Sequence record: PZ386970.1
Direction: 5' to 3' (one strand)
DNA from: a phage
Length of the DNA: 64,000 nt
Each line of letters begins with the position of its first letter. The stretch's first letter is position 1. The translations under genes were made by a program, and so were the position numbers. The notes below the pieces were generated by a model. It did no database searches. It was not told the DNA's origin and saw only the letters and a program-made list of their open reading frames with translations. Positions 2,184-63,588 of the stretch are shown here, piece after piece.

Positions 2184-2492
2184 TTACATAAGAAGCAAAC
2201 GTTCTACCGGAGTACCATCAACCGAAATTACTTTATCAAGACGGAAAGAACGCCACTGACCTAACTTGGTATCGAATGCTCGAACTGATTCGCGAGGTTC
2301 ATAACGAACTTCTGTTGCTGGATTGTTATTTTCATATTTGACTTCAAGTTCATCGCGCGAAGCAAACATAGTGCGTACCTCACCATTAGCCTTTTCAAAT
2401 ACAACACAATGAACGCCTACAGACAGAATAGTTTTAATACGTTCACGAAGAACCATAGTTTCTTGTTCAGTTAAAATCATATTATTCACCAC
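2184..2492 (-). CDS. hypothetical protein
   Basis: 102-aa ORF from track between gene 31 and cd. Confidence 0.5.
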   Translation of the reverse strand: MVNNMILTEQETMVLRERIKTILSVGVHCVVFEKANGEVRTMFASRDELEVKYENNNPATEVRYEPRESVRAFDTKLGQWRSFRLDKVISVDGTPVERLLLM

Positions 2493-3063
2493 AAAAGTTT
2501 CGAATTTGTTCCCAATTCAGAGAACGAAGATTATTACGAGAGTACTGAATTACTTCAATACCAGCTTGTTTTAGAATGTCTGCCCAATTTTCAGGAGATC
2601 GGTCATATAATTCTGCATATACAACCTTTTTAATACCTGACTGCGTAATAGCTTTAGTGCAATCAGGACACGGAGAAAGCGTAGTATATAACGTAGCACC
2701 TTCAATAGAATTACCTTTACGAGCTGCAAACAAAATTGCATTCAATTCCGCATGGATTTCGTTATTAGCAGACCATGCACTATGAGCGGCCCGATGTTCT
2801 TTAGCCAAAACAAAATTATCCACCCGTCCAAATGCTGTAGTGCCTTCTTTATGCCCGGCAACGATGACCGGGCTTGGTTTATTCTTCAACCAACCGTTTT
2901 CGGATGCATGTTCGCAACAGTTTGTACCACCTGAAGGAGAGCCGTTATACCCAGTAGAGATAATGCGTCCATCTTTTTCAATGACCGCACCAACTTTCCA
3001 TGAACAACATTTTGATTCTTGAGAAATCAGATATGCAATCTGAAGGTATGTGCTAGCTTTCAT
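2482..3063 (-). CDS. cd: dCMP deaminase
   Basis: 193-aa ORF with cytidine/dCMP deaminase zinc motifs (HAELNAI..., PCPDCTKAI); same length as T4 Cd. Confidence 0.9.
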   Translation of the reverse strand: MKASTYLQIAYLISQESKCCSWKVGAVIEKDGRIISTGYNGSPSGGTNCCEHASENGWLKNKPSPVIVAGHKEGTTAFGRVDNFVLAKEHRAAHSAWSANNEIHAELNAILFAARKGNSIEGATLYTTLSPCPDCTKAITQSGIKKVVYAELYDRSPENWADILKQAGIEVIQYSRNNLRSLNWEQIRNFCGE

Positions 3064-4055
3064 TATTGAACCTTATTAATATAAGTTAACAACTCTTTAG
3101 TTTGTTCCCAACTGATGCACGCATCGGTAATGGAAACGCCATAGGACATATTATCAGAAATTTTTTGATTTCCTTCATGTAGGAACGATTCTATCATAAT
3201 TCCTTTGACCAAATCATTAGCTGCTAAATTTTTACCAATACCAATTTGATTGCTATAATGCCCATCAGCGTTTGCATGGCTACAGTCAACCATTACATAA
3301 TGATTCAGACCTACTGCCCTTGCTTTGTTAGAAGCTTCTTGAATATCAGAAGAATGATAGTTCGGGCCGTTGGTCCCGCCACGCAATACGATATGCGTAT
3401 TCTGATTACCTTCAGCTTCAACAATGCCTACAGTACCATCGACGTCCATACCCATATACCGATGAGGCCAGGCGGCACTATACATCGCGTCTGTAGCTAC
3501 TTTAATAGAACCATTGGTTGCGTTCTTGAAGCCTACGCACATCGGTAGACCTGAAGCAATTTCACGATGTGTCTGACTTTCAGTCGTACGGGCGCCAATA
3601 GCAACCCATGAGAAAATACCAGAAAGATACTTAATCGTGAATGGGTCTAATACTTCAGTTGCTAATGGAAGTCCCATACGTAGAAGTTTACGACACAATG
3701 TTCGTGCAACTATAAGACCGTGGTTCATATCAAAACTTCCGTCAAGATATGGATCATTTACAAGACCTTTCCAACCTACGGTAGTTCGAGGCTTTTCAAA
3801 ATAAACGCGCATCACTAACAGAACATTAGGAAGACGAGTTTGAAGTTCAGCCAGACGTTTGCCGTATTCAACAGCAGCAATAGGGTCATGAATTGAACAA
3901 GGACCTACAACAATAAGTTTGCGTGGGTCTTCACCATTCATAATCGAATTAACTTGTTCGCGATGAGAAGCCACTTGTGATGCGTAAGCTTCCGACAAAG
4001 GAATAATCTCAGCCAGTTCTTTTGGAGAAATAAGTTTTCCGACGACAGGTAACAT
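3063..4055 (-). CDS. 3-deoxy-D-arabino-heptulosonate-7-phosphate (DAHP) synthase, class I (AroF/AroG-like)
   Basis: 330-aa ORF with DAHP-synthase signature blocks GPCSIHD, MRVYFEKPRTTVGWKGL, GARTTESQTHRE, VDCSH, IESFLHEGNQ, SITDACISW; all four metal ligands of E. coli AroG (Cys, His, Glu, Asp) conserved; ATGA overlap with cd start. Confidence 0.85.
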   Translation of the reverse strand: MLPVVGKLISPKELAEIIPLSEAYASQVASHREQVNSIMNGEDPRKLIVVGPCSIHDPIAAVEYGKRLAELQTRLPNVLLVMRVYFEKPRTTVGWKGLVNDPYLDGSFDMNHGLIVARTLCRKLLRMGLPLATEVLDPFTIKYLSGIFSWVAIGARTTESQTHREIASGLPMCVGFKNATNGSIKVATDAMYSAAWPHRYMGMDVDGTVGIVEAEGNQNTHIVLRGGTNGPNYHSSDIQEASNKARAVGLNHYVMVDCSHANADGHYSNQIGIGKNLAANDLVKGIMIESFLHEGNQKISDNMSYGVSITDACISWEQTKELLTYINKVQ

Positions 4056-4175
4056 AACAATCCTTAGGAGATATAAACAGATTCTGATTCAACAATACCT
4101 TTAACCGGATTAGACAGGCTAAGTTGGTAGTGCTCAGATTTATGACCATTCTCGATAGTAATGAGATAGCTCTCA

Positions 4176-4412
4176 TTATAGTGTTCCATATACTCGAGTT
4201 GCTTCAACAAGACCATCACTGCCTAATTTAAGATTAGTAATTTGGTCACCATCTTTAGGATTAACGATTATGAGAAAAGAACGTGGAGATTCTTGAATAA
4301 CTCGTAATGTTGCATCCTGGAAACGTTCAGACACTTTATTGATGAGTGCTTGAGCAAATTCTTTTACTTTAATCTGAAATTCGTGTACTGTAATTGGGGT
4401 TTCACTTAGCAT
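4176..4412 (-). CDS. hypothetical protein
   Basis: 78-aa ORF from track. Confidence 0.45.
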   Translation of the reverse strand: MLSETPITVHEFQIKVKEFAQALINKVSERFQDATLRVIQESPRSFLIIVNPKDGDQITNLKLGSDGLVEATRVYGTL

Positions 4413-4471
4413 TTCGATTTCCTCATTGTGTTGGTAGAGTTATAGTATCACAACTCCACCATGTTGTAAAC

Positions 4472-55812: not shown

Positions 55813-56472
55813 TTAACCTCGATTCATAAATGCATTAAATATTTGGTCATCAACAGAAATTTCTAATTCGACTTCAATTGTTTCAGCCTTTTCTTCAGGT
55901 GGTAATTCGTATCCACACACTACAATTTTTTCATCGATATCAAAATATACAGAAGCAATACGATTAATGTTACTTTCAGTTAAGTCTAAATCAACATCAA
56001 CATCTTTTTGACCTACACTTAAAGGATAACTAATACGGGTTATTTTATTATCTTTAACAAAGAGTCCGCCAACATACTCTGTACTACGTTTGAAGTTTAC
56101 ACGTTTCCGAATTGAAAGATATGATACATCTTTACCATGAGCTCGGCTCATAGGACATAATGAATAGCTAGAATAAGAGATGTCAAATCCTACGCCTTCA
56201 ACATGTGCTAGAGTATCATGAGTAAACCAATTATAGTCGTATGCCAAATCCATTAAATTATAATATGTGAAAGGCACTGGATTAACATCGTATGTTGTAC
56301 CTTTAAAATCTGCCCAGGCGACGATTTCGTTATCTTTAACAATTACAAAAATTACACCAATATGATATCCGTTATTATTTTCATTCGGCGTTATATTATA
56401 ACATTGTGCATTAGGAAATTTACCATATTTAAATGGCGCATTTTTGTGCATATAATAAATCATATTATTCAC
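55813..56472 (-). CDS. hypothetical protein (61.2-position)
   Basis: 219-aa ORF from track. Confidence 0.5.
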   Translation of the reverse strand: MNNMIYYMHKNAPFKYGKFPNAQCYNITPNENNNGYHIGVIFVIVKDNEIVAWADFKGTTYDVNPVPFTYYNLMDLAYDYNWFTHDTLAHVEGVGFDISYSSYSLCPMSRAHGKDVSYLSIRKRVNFKRSTEYVGGLFVKDNKITRISYPLSVGQKDVDVDLDLTESNINRIASVYFDIDEKIVVCGYELPPEEKAETIEVELEISVDDQIFNAFMNRG

Positions 56473-61422: not shown

Positions 61423-61971
61423 TTAACGAGCCCATTTAATGATTTCTGTAATCAAATAATTACGTTCGCTTGCATTAAATCCTATAACTTTGTTAGCACC
61501 ATCATGATTAAGTAATTGATACGTTTGGATTTTGTTATGAATTGCAAACTCTTCAAAATATGAAATGACTGTATTAAAACCGAATGAAGACAAAGTAATA
61601 AGGTCGTCTTCAAAACTTTCAGTCATTTCGTTACGTGTTAAAATAATTGTGAACACATCATGGTTTTGGCAAAGACGAACATAATCCTGTTCATAAACGT
61701 CAAGAACCGAGTCCACATCTTGTCGAATACGTCCATAAACCCAGTTACTAATATATCCACGGTCTAACAGATAAATCTTAGTAGGGTCTAAATAATTCAA
61801 CATCGTTTCGAAACAACCAACTTCATTTCGAGACTTAACATCGAAACGCCCATCAACTGTTCGTTTAGGGAAATCAATCTTTACATATCTTTCACTAATT
61901 TCCATTATGTCATTAATGAAAGTTGTTTTACCAGCATTATCTGGGCCGTCTACTAAAATAATTTTAGCCAT
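61423..61971 (-). CDS. P-loop nucleoside/nucleotide kinase-like protein
   Basis: 182-aa ORF with N-terminal Walker A (ILVDGPDNAGKTT); occupies part of the locus where T4 encodes beta-glucosyltransferase. Confidence 0.5.
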   Translation of the reverse strand: MAKIILVDGPDNAGKTTFINDIMEISERYVKIDFPKRTVDGRFDVKSRNEVGCFETMLNYLDPTKIYLLDRGYISNWVYGRIRQDVDSVLDVYEQDYVRLCQNHDVFTIILTRNEMTESFEDDLITLSSFGFNTVISYFEEFAIHNKIQTYQLLNHDGANKVIGFNASERNYLITEIIKWAR

Positions 61972-61972
61972 T

Positions 61973-62872
61973 TTATTCCTCGATTACGACATCTTCGTAT
62001 TTAGGTATATTATACGGTGAAGAAATTAAAGCATTAAAGTAGATGAACTCACCAAGACCTGGATGGAATACTTCTTCAGGATTTTCGAAATATTGAATTT
62101 TCGGACGTCCTTTAAGAATTTGATAGTACTCAGTTTTAGTTGGATTAAAAATTCGAATCAGCGCTTCTTCAGGATACTTATTTCTGTCGAAACTATTATT
62201 TGGATCAGTTATATAAAGCGGTTGACCTAATTGAATTGCGCATTCAACAACTTGTTCAAAACGATAGCATGGGTCACTAATTCGAAATGGATGAAAAATA
62301 CCATCTAGATGAATAGGAGCCAAATCACCTACAAGACGCTGCATGATGGAAGGACGTATAACTTTCTGAGTTACGATAATCTTATTACCATCTGCACCTG
62401 CGTTAACCAGCACTTCTTTTTGACGTTCATTCAACACAGTAGTTTGAAGTGAACGATTAACTGACAACATATCGGTTTTTAAGAATTCGTCAATATAAAA
62501 ACGTGGTTTATTAGGGTCTGCCGTGATATTGAAATTGAATTCTACATCAAAAGCGCCGTCATATCCAGTGATATCTGTTATTAGAAAATCACAATCATAA
62601 TAAGCAATTAATGAATCAACCACAAATTCATTTTCAGACCAGAAATATTTACGAGTGTTATACGCGTTATCTTTATACCATAATGGAACAAACTTAAATT
62701 CCGGGAAAAGACGTTCACATTCTTTAATATCAGATGCATTACGTGGATATGTAATCACATCACCCGGATTAGCACGGTGCAAATGAAGTTGGAAGTTGCC
62801 ATCCTTAAGGATAGCATACTGTCCAGTTTCATAAGACCGCATACTCAAGATTGGTACGCGGAAAATAGCCAT
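61973..62872 (-). CDS. hypothetical protein (non-T4 gene at beta-gt locus)
   Basis: 299-aa ORF; no similarity to T4 beta-gt as recalled. Confidence 0.5.
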   Translation of the reverse strand: MAIFRVPILSMRSYETGQYAILKDGNFQLHLHRANPGDVITYPRNASDIKECERLFPEFKFVPLWYKDNAYNTRKYFWSENEFVVDSLIAYYDCDFLITDITGYDGAFDVEFNFNITADPNKPRFYIDEFLKTDMLSVNRSLQTTVLNERQKEVLVNAGADGNKIIVTQKVIRPSIMQRLVGDLAPIHLDGIFHPFRISDPCYRFEQVVECAIQLGQPLYITDPNNSFDRNKYPEEALIRIFNPTKTEYYQILKGRPKIQYFENPEEVFHPGLGEFIYFNALISSPYNIPKYEDVVIEE

Positions 62873-63588
62873 TAGTCAAGGAATCCTTTAACATAATCAA
62901 AATCACGTTCAAACACATGGGCACTTACCATGGTATGAGTATAATCACCAACTTCTACACCACATTCGTTAGCGATATAATGAAGTAATTTTCCTTGGAG
63001 ATAAAAATCCAACTGCATAACAACAGCACAATTCTGAGAACGCATATGACAGTGGGTATAAAGCTTACCATCACGAATATAATAAGTCACTGAGTCAGTA
63101 CATGGATATTCAAGCGTTTCGTCCGAATCAAGCAAAGCCTGATCAGAACTTTCTAGAATTTGGAACACAACTCTTCGGGAGTTAGGCTTCTCTTTAAGTT
63201 CTTTTAGAAGAGCTGGTAATTGGGCCGCAATTCGAGGACCATAGAAAGTGTTGAAGTTCGCAGGCAAAGCATCTGATTTTGGTTTAGAAATAAATTTAGC
63301 GACATTAGGATATGCCTTAAACGCTTCTTCTGCATCAGTACCACCAGAAATCATAAACTTCCAGAAATCTTCGGCATATTCATAAGAGATGCGGTTAATA
63401 CGTGGGTCGGTCATTTTGAATGATGATGGAGTGTCAACAACTACTGTCATGGACCCAATTTCATTACAACGTCCAATACGAGAATCAGTTACGAATTCCG
63501 GGTTTTCTAAAATTTCACGATTGACTGCTTTAAATGCGGCTTGAAAATCTGCTGCTTTGATATATTTCATTGTGTTATGTTTTCCCAT
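62872..63588 (-). CDS. thymidylate-synthase-fold pyrimidine hydroxymethylase, divergent gene 42 homologue
   Basis: 238-aa ORF; catalytic Cys block EYPCTDSVTYYIRD and downstream Asp (QLDFY) align with T4 dCMP hydroxymethylase Cys148/Asp179, but overall similarity to T4 gp42 is only ~30% by eye. Confidence 0.6.
   Translation of the reverse strand: MGKHNTMKYIKAADFQAAFKAVNREILENPEFVTDSRIGRCNEIGSMTVVVDTPSSFKMTDPRINRISYEYAEDFWKFMISGGTDAEEAFKAYPNVAKFISKPKSDALPANFNTFYGPRIAAQLPALLKELKEKPNSRRVVFQILESSDQALLDSDETLEYPCTDSVTYYIRDGKLYTHCHMRSQNCAVVMQLDFYLQGKLLHYIANECGVEVGDYTHTMVSAHVFERDFDYVKGFLD

What the first reader, a model, noticed from the sequence alone, without database searches (positions are those of the whole stretch)
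3063..4055. Host-like DAHP synthase (shikimate pathway entry enzyme) embedded in the cd-pseT early operon
The 330-aa ORF carries every signature block and all four metal ligands of class I DAHP synthases (AroF/AroG/AroH) and is translationally coupled to cd (ATGA overlap). To my knowledge the T4 reference has no such gene. It lacks the ~20 N-terminal residues that in E. coli AroG contribute to feedback inhibition, so it may be deregulated. It could act as an auxiliary metabolic gene boosting aromatic amino acid or chorismate-derived metabolite supply during infection. It could also have been recruited for a different aldol condensation, since the fold is shared with KDO8P synthase, which uses arabinose-5-phosphate.
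Basis: partly seen in the sequence, partly recalled or inferred. Interest (0 to 1): 0.75.

Follow-up and report, generated by a model that had tools for sequence, protein, structure and literature searches.

The report
Phage DAHP synthase with rebuilt regulatory site
A T4-like (RB69-group) coliphage carries an intact copy of the enzyme that opens the aromatic amino-acid pathway; the gene is already annotated in over 200 phage genomes, but its feedback-inhibition pocket has been specifically rewritten, so it probably runs without the normal brake.

Summary
The ORF is real. It lies at window 3063-4055 on the minus strand, encodes 330 aa, and is an intact type I-alpha DAHP synthase. It scores 428 bits against TIGR00034 (cut-off 173). 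All metal, PEP and E4P residues are present, and the AF2 model matches DAHPS crystal structures at TM 0.96.

Its presence is not new. The window is a Mosigvirus (RB69-group T-even phage), and the protein is 100% identical to PhAPEC2 gp185. The gene is annotated in 213 phage records, forms PHROG 5045, and was discussed as an auxiliary metabolic gene in a 2025 paper. T4 and RB69 lack it.

It is not a recent host capture. It is 51% identical to E. coli AroF and has phage-like codon composition. It belongs to a monophyletic phage clade that occupies the same pseT-cd slot in at least five T4-like genera.

What I add:
- 109 positions are at least 95% conserved in the 98 nearest bacterial homologues.
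- Only five of these are fixed to another residue in the phage clade: Q151K, D155G, S180P, F209Y and T223A (AroG numbering).
- All five lie in the allosteric-site region.
- The first 8-9 N-terminal residues are deleted.
- Q-to-K at this position is the yeast ARO4 Q166K feedback-resistant allele.

Best reading: an early-expressed, naturally feedback-insensitive DAHPS. This is untested biochemically.

The parts
3063..4055 (-). DAHP synthase CDS (330 aa), type I-alpha and AroF-like. Catalytic residues: C53, R83, K88-P89-R90-T91, A155, R156, K177, R225, H260, E289, D311. Remodelled allosteric positions: I141, K142, G146, P171, Y200, A214.
2482..3063 (-). cd, dCMP deaminase (193 aa), immediately downstream of the DAHPS gene.
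3061..3065 (-). TAATG stop/start overlap between the DAHPS gene and cd (one shared base). This is a translational-coupling-type junction.
4061..4065 (-). AAGGA Shine-Dalgarno-like motif, 5 nt upstream of the DAHPS ATG.
   Evidence: read from sequence
4064..4189 (-). 41-codon ORF in the cd.2-DAHPS spacer. It is homologous to the C-terminal half of the Kanagawavirus/Marfavirus-type cd.2, so it is a remnant carried in with the DAHPS cassette. Its stop lies 8 nt before the DAHPS ATG, as the intact cd.2 does in PEi20.
4176..4412 (-). cd.2 homologue (78 aa, DUF7320), 97% identical to RB69 Cd.2. It is the first gene of the transcription unit.
4442..4470 (-). Sigma-70-type early promoter (GTTTACA, 17 nt, TG-n-TACTAT). 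It aligns with the T4 stretch between cd.3 and cd.2, where the T4 record notes an early promoter.
4161..4179 (-). Upstream copy of an imperfect 19-bp direct repeat (ATAATGAGAGCTATCTCAT) that flanks the 1.1-kb DAHPS segment.
3048..3066 (-). Downstream copy of the repeat (ATAATGAAAGCTAGCACAT, 16/19 identical). It spans the DAHPS stop and the cd start. RB69 has a single copy at its cd.2/cd junction.

Best explanation
The gene encodes a catalytically competent type I-alpha DAHP synthase (E4P + PEP -> DAHP). It is transcribed early from the promoter upstream of cd.2, as part of the cd.2-DAHPS-cd unit.

It belongs to a phage-only clade that sits in the pseT-cd slot of several T4-like genera. In that clade the catalytic barrel has been kept intact, while the aromatic amino-acid binding pocket has been rewritten and the N-terminal residues that close the pocket have been deleted. 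The enzyme is therefore most likely insensitive to Tyr, Phe and Trp.

During infection it would keep carbon flowing into the shikimate pathway (aromatic amino acids and chorismate-derived cofactors). At that time host transcription is shut off and the host isozymes are feedback-throttled.

Shown: gene integrity, family membership, residue pattern, synteny and purifying selection. Inferred: early expression, loss of feedback, and the physiological benefit.
For: Family membership and fold:
-.
- AF2 model pLDDT 93.6, TM 0.96 and rmsd 1.3 A to N. meningitidis and E. coli DAHPS structures.
- All catalytic residues are invariant in 29 phage and 98 bacterial sequences.

Unbiased residue scan:
- 109 columns are at least 95% conserved in the 98 nearest bacterial homologues.
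- Only five of them are fixed to another residue in the phage clade: Q151K, D155G, S180P, F209Y, T223A. All lie in the inhibitor-site region.
- P150I also occurs in 28 of 29 phage sequences.
- AroG residues 6-8 are deleted in 29 of 29 phage sequences.
- No bacterial sequence in the set has more than one of these changes.

Literature on these positions:
- Q151/Q152 and S180/S181 side chains bind the inhibitor main chain, and P150L, S180F and F209A/S are feedback-resistant (PMC9529685).
- Yeast Aro4 Q166 aligns with AroG Q151, and ARO4 Q166K is a feedback-resistant allele (PMC7513737).

Selection and history:
- Purifying selection: Entb_45 vs PEi20 gives dS 0.71, dN 0.10, omega 0.145.
- The same locus is occupied in Mosig-, Marfa-, Kanagawa-, Winkler- and Bragavirus and on a metagenomic T4-like contig.
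- About 140 of about 152 Mosigvirus records keep the gene.

Expression:
- The promoter region aligns with the T4 stretch between cd.3 and cd.2 where the T4 record notes an early promoter.
Against: - No biochemical or genetic test of any phage DAHPS was found.
- The replacement residues are themselves strictly conserved. That fits a stabilised active state, but equally fits a pocket that now binds some other effector.
- In a broader sample of 150 family representatives, individual substitutions such as S180P (22) and F209Y (18) occur in cellular lineages. The kind of change is therefore not unique.
- RB69 and about 10% of Mosigviruses do without the gene.
- Within Mosigvirus the few differences are mostly nonsynonymous, giving omega 0.4-2.7 on only 5-12 substitutions. 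This is too few to interpret, but it is not a clear sign of constraint.
- I did not check the rest of the phage genome for other shikimate-pathway genes.
Confidence: 0.55

Rival explanations
1. It is an ordinary, still-regulated DAHPS that simply adds enzyme capacity. Alternatively, its conserved new pocket (I141, K142, G146, P171, Y200, A214) binds a different effector, so it is regulated differently rather than unregulated.
For: - The replacement residues are fixed in 28-29 of 29 sequences that span 56-100% identity, rather than drifting.
- The beta6a/beta6b hairpin and most hydrophobic pocket residues are kept: L179, G178, V221, and Gly at AroG position 211.
Against: - Every residue reported to contact the inhibitor's amino-acid main chain is gone: Q151, S180, and the N-terminal D6/D7 or N8 region.
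- Single substitutions at these positions already abolish inhibition in AroG and Aro4.
- 111 of 330 columns are invariant in the phage clade anyway, so fixation of five sites is weak evidence for a new ligand.
Confidence: 0.2
2. Its main role is as an irreversible sink for erythrose-4-phosphate (and PEP). This would pull the reversible non-oxidative pentose-phosphate pathway towards pentose phosphates, which these phages need in excess for nucleotides and for UDP-arabinose to make arabinosyl-5-hydroxycytosine DNA.
For: - The window phage carries the 5-hydroxy-dCMP synthase, arabinosyltransferase and kinase genes (61423-63588).
- Published work shows that this phage group diverts ribulose-5-P through a phage arabinose-5-P isomerase (PMC13326640).
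- Four of the DAHPS-bearing genera seen here (Mosig-, Marfa-, Kanagawa-, Bragavirus) are on the published list of 5hoC genera. Serratia Winklervirus-host phages are reported separately to have the modification.
Against: The two traits are not co-distributed:
- RB69 makes the modification without a DAHPS.
- 57 Acinetobacter phage records have the isomerase, but essentially none have a DAHPS.
- 25 Klebsiella and 7 Proteus phage records have a DAHPS but do not appear among the isomerase hits.

No published hint of this role was found: the terms erythrose, DAHP and shikimate occur zero times in PMC13326640.
Confidence: 0.08
3. It is a dispensable passenger or decaying gene in a hyperplastic slot, with no significant function in present-day Mosigviruses.
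For: - RB69 and about 12 Mosigvirus records lack it.
- The cassette arrived with a remnant of a foreign cd.2.
- Within-genus omega is near 1 on very few substitutions.
Against: - The ORF is intact in all 213 records at 80% coverage or more, as single pieces in all rows shown.
- Omega is 0.13-0.25 between genera.
- All catalytic residues are invariant.
- The composition is fully ameliorated to that of the phage.
- The gene sits in an early operon with SD and coupling signals.
Confidence: 0.07
4. It has been recruited for a different aldol condensation, such as arabinose-5-P + PEP to KDO8P.
For: - DAHPS and KDO8P synthase share the Pfam family PF00793.
- The phage produces arabinose-5-P.
Against: - The KPRT motif is invariant, and there is no KANRS-type motif. 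That this motif distinguishes the two enzymes is from my own knowledge.
- Every E4P/PEP/metal residue is identical to AroF/G/H.
- Only DAHPS models match in NCBIfam at E <= 1e-3.
- Making KDO8P would compete with the phage's own use of arabinose-5-P.
Confidence: 0.03

Closest known systems
E. coli AroF, Tyr-sensitive type I-alpha DAHP synthase (PDB 6AGL/6AGM); also AroG (1KFL/1QR7) and N. meningitidis DAH7PS
   Same: - Best PDB sequence match, E 7e-105.
- Same fold, TM 0.96 to Nme/AroG structures.
- Identical metal, PEP and E4P residues.
- AroF-type Pro at AroG position 147 and Gly at position 211.
- Scores above the NF009395 subfamily cut-off.
   Different: - Only 51% identical.
- 9 residues shorter at the N-terminus (lacks the N8 region).
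- Q152K, S181P, P151I, F->Y and D156G in the inhibitor site (AroF numbering).
- Two short deletions in the C-terminal half.
- Encoded by a phage, with GC3 of 30% against 50% for aroF.
Engineered or selected feedback-resistant DAHPS alleles (yeast ARO4 Q166K and K229L; E. coli AroG P150L, S180F, F209A/S, L175D)
   Same: The phage clade carries substitutions at the same positions, including the identical Gln-to-Lys change of ARO4 Q166K.
   Different: - The phage changes are natural, combined and fixed across a clade, and are accompanied by an N-terminal deletion.
- Their effect on inhibition has not been measured.
DAHP synthetase of Klebsiella Kanagawavirus KLB31, reported as an amino-acid AMG (PLoS One 2025, PMC11845039); PHROG 5045
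   Same: It is in a Kanagawavirus, a genus whose DAHPS falls in this clade. The same AMG interpretation was already proposed.
   Different: That report gives the annotation and the hypothesis only. It does not analyse regulatory residues, origin or locus.
KDO8P synthase (KdsA)
   Same: Same Pfam family and the same PEP-aldol chemistry.
   Different: The phage protein has the DAHPS KPRT motif and the type I-alpha extensions. It matches no KdsA model.
Naturally unregulated type I-beta DAHPS of some archaea (from my own knowledge; not tested here)
   Same: These are a precedent for DAHPS enzymes that lack feedback control.
   Different: Those enzymes lack the regulatory elements altogether. The phage enzyme keeps the I-alpha hairpin and most of the N-terminal extension, and changes only the ligand-contact residues.

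Membership tests
Type I-alpha DAHP synthase (AroF/G/H, TIGR00034, EC 2.5.1.54) | Score above the curated family HMM cut-off | tested here: met
   TIGR00034 428 bits vs cut-off 173; PF00793 252.6 bits vs 25.5.
Type I-alpha DAHP synthase (AroF/G/H, TIGR00034, EC 2.5.1.54) | (beta/alpha)8 barrel with an N-terminal extension and the beta6a/beta6b hairpin | tested here: met
   AF2 model pLDDT 93.6. Strands 198-203 and 209-214 form the hairpin. TM 0.96 and rmsd 1.3 A to 4HSO, 8E0U and 1GG1.
Type I-alpha DAHP synthase (AroF/G/H, TIGR00034, EC 2.5.1.54) | Metal ligands Cys61, His268, Glu302, Asp326 (AroG numbering) | tested here: met
   Window C53, H260, E289, D311. Invariant in 29 phage and 98 bacterial sequences.
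Type I-alpha DAHP synthase (AroF/G/H, TIGR00034, EC 2.5.1.54) | PEP-binding residues R92, K97, A164, R165, K186, R234 and the KPRT E4P-phosphate motif | tested here: met
   Window R83, K88, A155, R156, K177, R225 and K88-P89-R90-T91, all invariant.
Type I-alpha DAHP synthase (AroF/G/H, TIGR00034, EC 2.5.1.54) | Aromatic amino-acid inhibitor site (Q151, S180, P150, F209, D155, plus N-terminal D6/D7 of the partner subunit) | tested here: not met
   Window has K142, P171, I141, Y200, G146, and residues 1-8 are absent. This state is fixed in 28-29 of 29 phage sequences, against Q 98/98, S 96/98, P 88/98, F 98/98 and D 96/98 in the nearest bacterial homologues.
Type I-alpha DAHP synthase (AroF/G/H, TIGR00034, EC 2.5.1.54) | Catalyses E4P + PEP -> DAHP | not testable with these tools
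   Needs an enzyme assay or complementation of an aroFGH mutant.
AroG (NF006723) and AroH (NF009396) isozyme models | Score above the curated cut-off | tested here: not met
   AroG model 363 bits vs cut-off 568; AroH model 387 bits vs 463.
AroF-like subfamily (NF009395 / PRK12755) | Score above the subfamily cut-off; Pro at AroG position 147 and Gly at position 211 | tested here: met
   455 bits vs cut-off 343. P138 and G202 match 94/98 and 96/98 of the bacterial homologues.
KDO8P synthase (KdsA) | KANRS-type motif in place of KPRT; match to KdsA models | tested here: not met
   KPRT is invariant. Only DAHPS models were returned by NCBIfam at E <= 1e-3. The motif criterion is from my own knowledge.
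Phage auxiliary metabolic gene (PHROG 5045) | Member of a phage protein family homologous to a host metabolic enzyme, retained under purifying selection across phage lineages | tested here: met
   PHROG 5045 at 606 bits; 213 phage records; syntenic in five genera; omega 0.145; monophyletic in 40/40 NJ bootstraps.
Phage auxiliary metabolic gene (PHROG 5045) | Alters host metabolism during infection | not testable with these tools
   Needs infection metabolomics with a knockout phage.

The most novel reading that the evidence does not exclude
The rewritten pocket (I141, K142, G146, P171, Y200, A214) is strictly conserved. It may not be a dead regulatory site but a new one. In that reading the phage enzyme is controlled by a non-aromatic, infection-specific metabolite. 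Alternatively it may work mainly as an irreversible erythrose-4-phosphate drain that re-routes the pentose-phosphate pathway for pentose-hungry, arabinosylated-DNA phages. Either way, shikimate entry would be coupled to phage nucleotide and DNA-modification metabolism.
Probability: 0.1. Interest if true: 0.7.

Novelty: new variant of a known kind. Interest (0 to 1): 0.38.

Why it matters
The gene's presence is ordinary database knowledge. The residue pattern, however, turns a vague 'AMG' label into a sharp and cheap prediction: T4-like phages carry a DAHP synthase that evolution has made feedback-resistant, using the same positions that metabolic engineers mutate.

If that is confirmed, three things follow:
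- It would show that phages take over a biosynthetic pathway by replacing its control point, not merely by adding enzyme.
- It would give a natural, stable feedback-resistant type I-alpha scaffold for aromatic-compound production.
- It would supply a clean knockout phenotype for asking when amino-acid supply limits phage yield.

Tried and rejected
1. Strict coupling to the arabinosyl-5-hydroxycytosine pathway. tblastn with the phage arabinose-5-P isomerase, compared with the DAHPS distribution, shows presence and absence mismatches in both directions. RB69 has the modification without a DAHPS. Rejected as an obligatory link.

2. Recent capture from the host. Rejected on three grounds: 44-51% identity to AroH/G/F, GC3 of 30% against 50-57%, and a monophyletic phage clade with a 0.16 stem branch.

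3. KDO8P-type re-use. Rejected on motif and model evidence.

4. Pseudogene. Rejected. The ORF is intact everywhere it was sampled.

5. RB69 simply lost the gene. Not resolved. The junction repeat allows deletion. The foreign cd.2 remnant upstream of the DAHPS gene argues that the cassette was inserted into a Mosigvirus backbone from a Kanagawa/Marfa-like phage.

6. Literature searches for an experimental study of a phage DAHPS found only annotation-level mentions.

7. Within-Mosigvirus dN/dS was uninformative because there are too few substitutions.

8. The broad representative search showed that single pocket substitutions also exist in divergent cellular lineages. The uniqueness claim is therefore limited to the combination and to the nearest homologues.

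9. Antisense ORFs and the plus-strand promoter-like and terminator-like hits inside the gene are at chance level: 13 found against 14.1 expected.
Full report
**Observation.** Window 3063-4055 holds a 330-codon ORF on the minus strand, and no longer frame is available. It matches several DAHPS models:
- PF00793 DAHP_synth_1, E 4e-75.
- NCBIfam TIGR00034 aroFGH, 428 bits against a cut-off of 173.
- The AroF-like subfamily NF009395, 455 bits against 343.
- It falls below the AroG and AroH isozyme cut-offs.

The best solved relative is E. coli AroF (6AGM/6AGL, E 7e-105). An AlphaFold2 model built from 45 homologues has pLDDT 93.6 and pTM 0.92. It superposes on N. meningitidis and E. coli DAHPS crystal structures at TM 0.96 and rmsd 1.3 A.

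The downstream gene is cd (dCMP deaminase, 2482-3063). The junction reads TAATG, so the stop and the start share one base. It is not an ATGA four-base overlap. An AAGGA motif sits 5 nt before the DAHPS ATG.

**What the window is.** The DNA is 98% identical to many Mosigvirus genomes (RB69-group T-even phages). The protein is 100% identical to vB_EcoM_PhAPEC2 gp185.
- tblastn finds the gene in 213 phage records, most of them annotated as DAHP synthase, phospho-2-dehydro-3-deoxyheptonate aldolase or aroF.
- It is PHROG 5045 in the 'moron, auxiliary metabolic gene' category, at 606 bits.
- T4 has cd.1 in this slot.
- In RB69, cd.2 abuts cd directly.
- About 140 of about 152 Mosigvirus records carry the gene.
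- The literature mentions it only in passing for phiC120 (PMC8022965). It is proposed as an aromatic amino-acid AMG for a Klebsiella Kanagawavirus (PMC11845039).
- I found no experimental study.

**Origin.** The gene occupies the same pseT-cd interval in several phages:
- Marfavirus F48 (Klebsiella)
- Kanagawavirus PEi20 and Entb_45
- Winklervirus X20 (Serratia)
- Bragavirus PM2 (Proteus)
- an unnamed metagenomic T4-like contig

Protein identity to the window ranges from 57% to 77%. In X20 and PM2, cd.1 homologues lie between the DAHPS gene and cd.

Twenty-nine phage-clade sequences form a monophyletic group in a neighbour-joining tree, with 40/40 bootstraps and a stem branch of 0.16. Their sister group consists of AroF-like sequences, including several named as Pseudomonadota MAGs. 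No cellular protein exceeds about 55% identity, and E. coli AroF, AroG and AroH are at 51%, 47% and 44%. The best cellular hit sits in a bacterial context next to NfuA and MetH. GC is 41% and GC3 is 30%, matching the neighbouring phage genes and not E. coli aroF/aroG (GC3 50-57%). This is therefore an old phage gene, not a recent host capture.

Within Mosigvirus, the 1.1-kb segment is bracketed by an imperfect 19-bp direct repeat (16/19 identical). The copies lie at 4161-4179 and 3048-3066, and RB69 has only one copy. The 120-bp spacer upstream of the DAHPS gene encodes a 41-residue remnant of the C-terminal half of a Kanagawa/Marfa-type cd.2. That points to transfer of a 'half-cd.2 + DAHPS' cassette between T4-like phages.

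**Is it functional?** All catalytic positions are present and invariant in 29 phage and 98 bacterial sequences:
- Metal ligands: C53, H260, E289, D311.
- PEP site: R83, K88, A155, R156, K177, R225.
- KPRT motif: residues 88-91.

Between genera, omega is 0.13-0.25. The one pair with unsaturated dS (Entb_45 vs PEi20) gives dS 0.71, dN 0.10 and omega 0.145. Within Mosigvirus there are only 5-12 differences per pair, which is too few to interpret.

The promoter-like site at 4442-4470 (GTTTACA, 17 nt, TG-TACTAT) aligns with the T4 sequence between cd.3 and cd.2, where the T4 record notes an early promoter. No terminator-like site intervenes on the minus strand. Early co-expression with cd.2 and cd is therefore inferred.

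**The regulatory site.** I asked, without choosing positions in advance, which columns are at least 95% conserved in the 98 nearest bacterial homologues yet fixed to a different residue in the phage clade. Of 109 such conserved columns, only five qualify:

| AroG numbering | Window residue |
|---|---|
| Q151K | K142 |
| D155G | G146 |
| S180P | P171 |
| F209Y | Y200 |
| T223A | A214 |

In addition:
- P150 is Ile in 28 of 29 phage sequences.
- AroG residues 6-8 are absent from all 29.
- Phage N-termini have 8-12 residues before the conserved Pro, against 16-53 in bacteria.
- No bacterial sequence in the set carries more than one of these changes.

According to PMC9529685:
- The side chains of AroG Q151/AroF Q152 and of S180/S181 bind the main chain of the inhibitor.
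- D155 forms a salt bridge that supports the site.
- P150L, S180F, F209A/S, L175D, L179A and V221A are feedback-resistant.

Yeast Aro4 Q166 is the same column as AroG Q151. I verified the numbering against PDB 1HFB. ARO4 Q166K is used as a feedback-resistant allele (PMC7513737). The phage lineage has thus left the catalytic machinery untouched and changed essentially only the inhibitor-contact residues, including the same Gln-to-Lys change.

Two caveats apply. In a wider sample of 150 family representatives, single changes such as S180P (22) or F209Y (18) also occur in cellular lineages, although none has more than two of the six phage residues. No enzyme data exist.

**Alternatives considered.**
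- A link to the arabinosyl-5-hydroxycytosine DNA modification of this phage group is attractive on paper (PMC13326640). The window itself carries the 5-hydroxy-dCMP synthase, transferase and kinase genes at 61423-63588. The distributions do not match, however. RB69 and 57 Acinetobacter phage records have the arabinose-5-P isomerase without a DAHPS. Klebsiella and Proteus phages have a DAHPS without appearing among the isomerase hits.
- A KDO8P-type activity is contradicted by the invariant KPRT motif and by the model matches.
- A decaying passenger gene is contradicted by the intact ORFs and by purifying selection between genera.

**Verdict.** The identification as a DAHPS is secure. The gene's existence and its AMG reading are already in databases and in one paper. 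The new element is the clade-specific rewriting of the allosteric site, which predicts a naturally feedback-insensitive enzyme. That makes this a modestly interesting variant of a known kind, with a direct biochemical test available.

Noticed in passing
window 4064-4189 (minus strand): A 41-codon ORF in the cd.2-DAHPS spacer is homologous to the C-terminal half of Kanagawavirus/Marfavirus-type Cd.2 (47-55% identity). It is identical at protein level in five Mosigviruses. The three nucleotide differences seen are all synonymous in its frame. It could be a remnant or a small expressed protein. Only SHSML-52-1 annotates it.
   Followed up: partly
window 4161-4179 and 3048-3066: An imperfect 19-bp direct repeat (16/19) flanks the DAHPS segment, and RB69 has one copy at its cd.2/cd junction. 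It probably marks the recombination junction of cassette gain or loss.
   Followed up: yes
window 61423-63588 (minus strand): This stretch holds a thymidylate-synthase homologue (62872-63588), a 299-aa protein (61973-62872) and a 182-aa kinase-like protein (61423-61971). They correspond to RB69 gp48, gp46:47 and gp45 of the published arabosyl-5-hydroxycytosine pathway, i.e. the arabinosyl-5-hydroxycytosine pathway. The rest of the cluster lies beyond the window end.
   Followed up: partly
window 55813-56472 (minus strand): A 219-aa protein matches Pfam AdfA (Anti-DarT factor A) at E 2e-118. This is a known counter-defence gene.
   Followed up: no
L007 2899-4062 (Aeromonas phage HJ05, 79-kb non-T4-like phage): This is an independent, 387-aa DAHPS homologue, 37% identical to the window protein. 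It also has non-canonical inhibitor-site residues (Q151H, S180P, P150A, F209V) alongside intact catalytic residues. It may represent a convergent loss of feedback control in another phage lineage.
   Followed up: partly
L006 3498-3839 (Serratia phage X20); L005 3457-3732 (Proteus phage PM2): Homologues of T4 cd.1 lie between the DAHPS gene and cd in these genera. The ancestral order may therefore have been cd.2-DAHPS-cd.1-cd, with different lineages losing different members.
   Followed up: partly
window 4038-4040 (codon 6 of the DAHPS gene): The window and PhAPEC2 have Gly6 where four other Mosigvirus alleles have Arg. Among the five Mosigvirus alleles compared, nonsynonymous differences outnumber synonymous ones (for example 9 to 1) and cluster at residues 4-6 and 231-266.
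   Followed up: partly
P0121 (799 aa) and P0123 (730 aa) from the representative search: These cellular proteins contain two DAHPS-like stretches each (tandem or fused forms). They were the top-scoring hits in the 50%-clustered library.
   Followed up: no
P0120 (Pasteurella multocida DAHPS): This is the only one of the 98 nearest bacterial homologues with Pro at the AroG S180 position.
   Followed up: no
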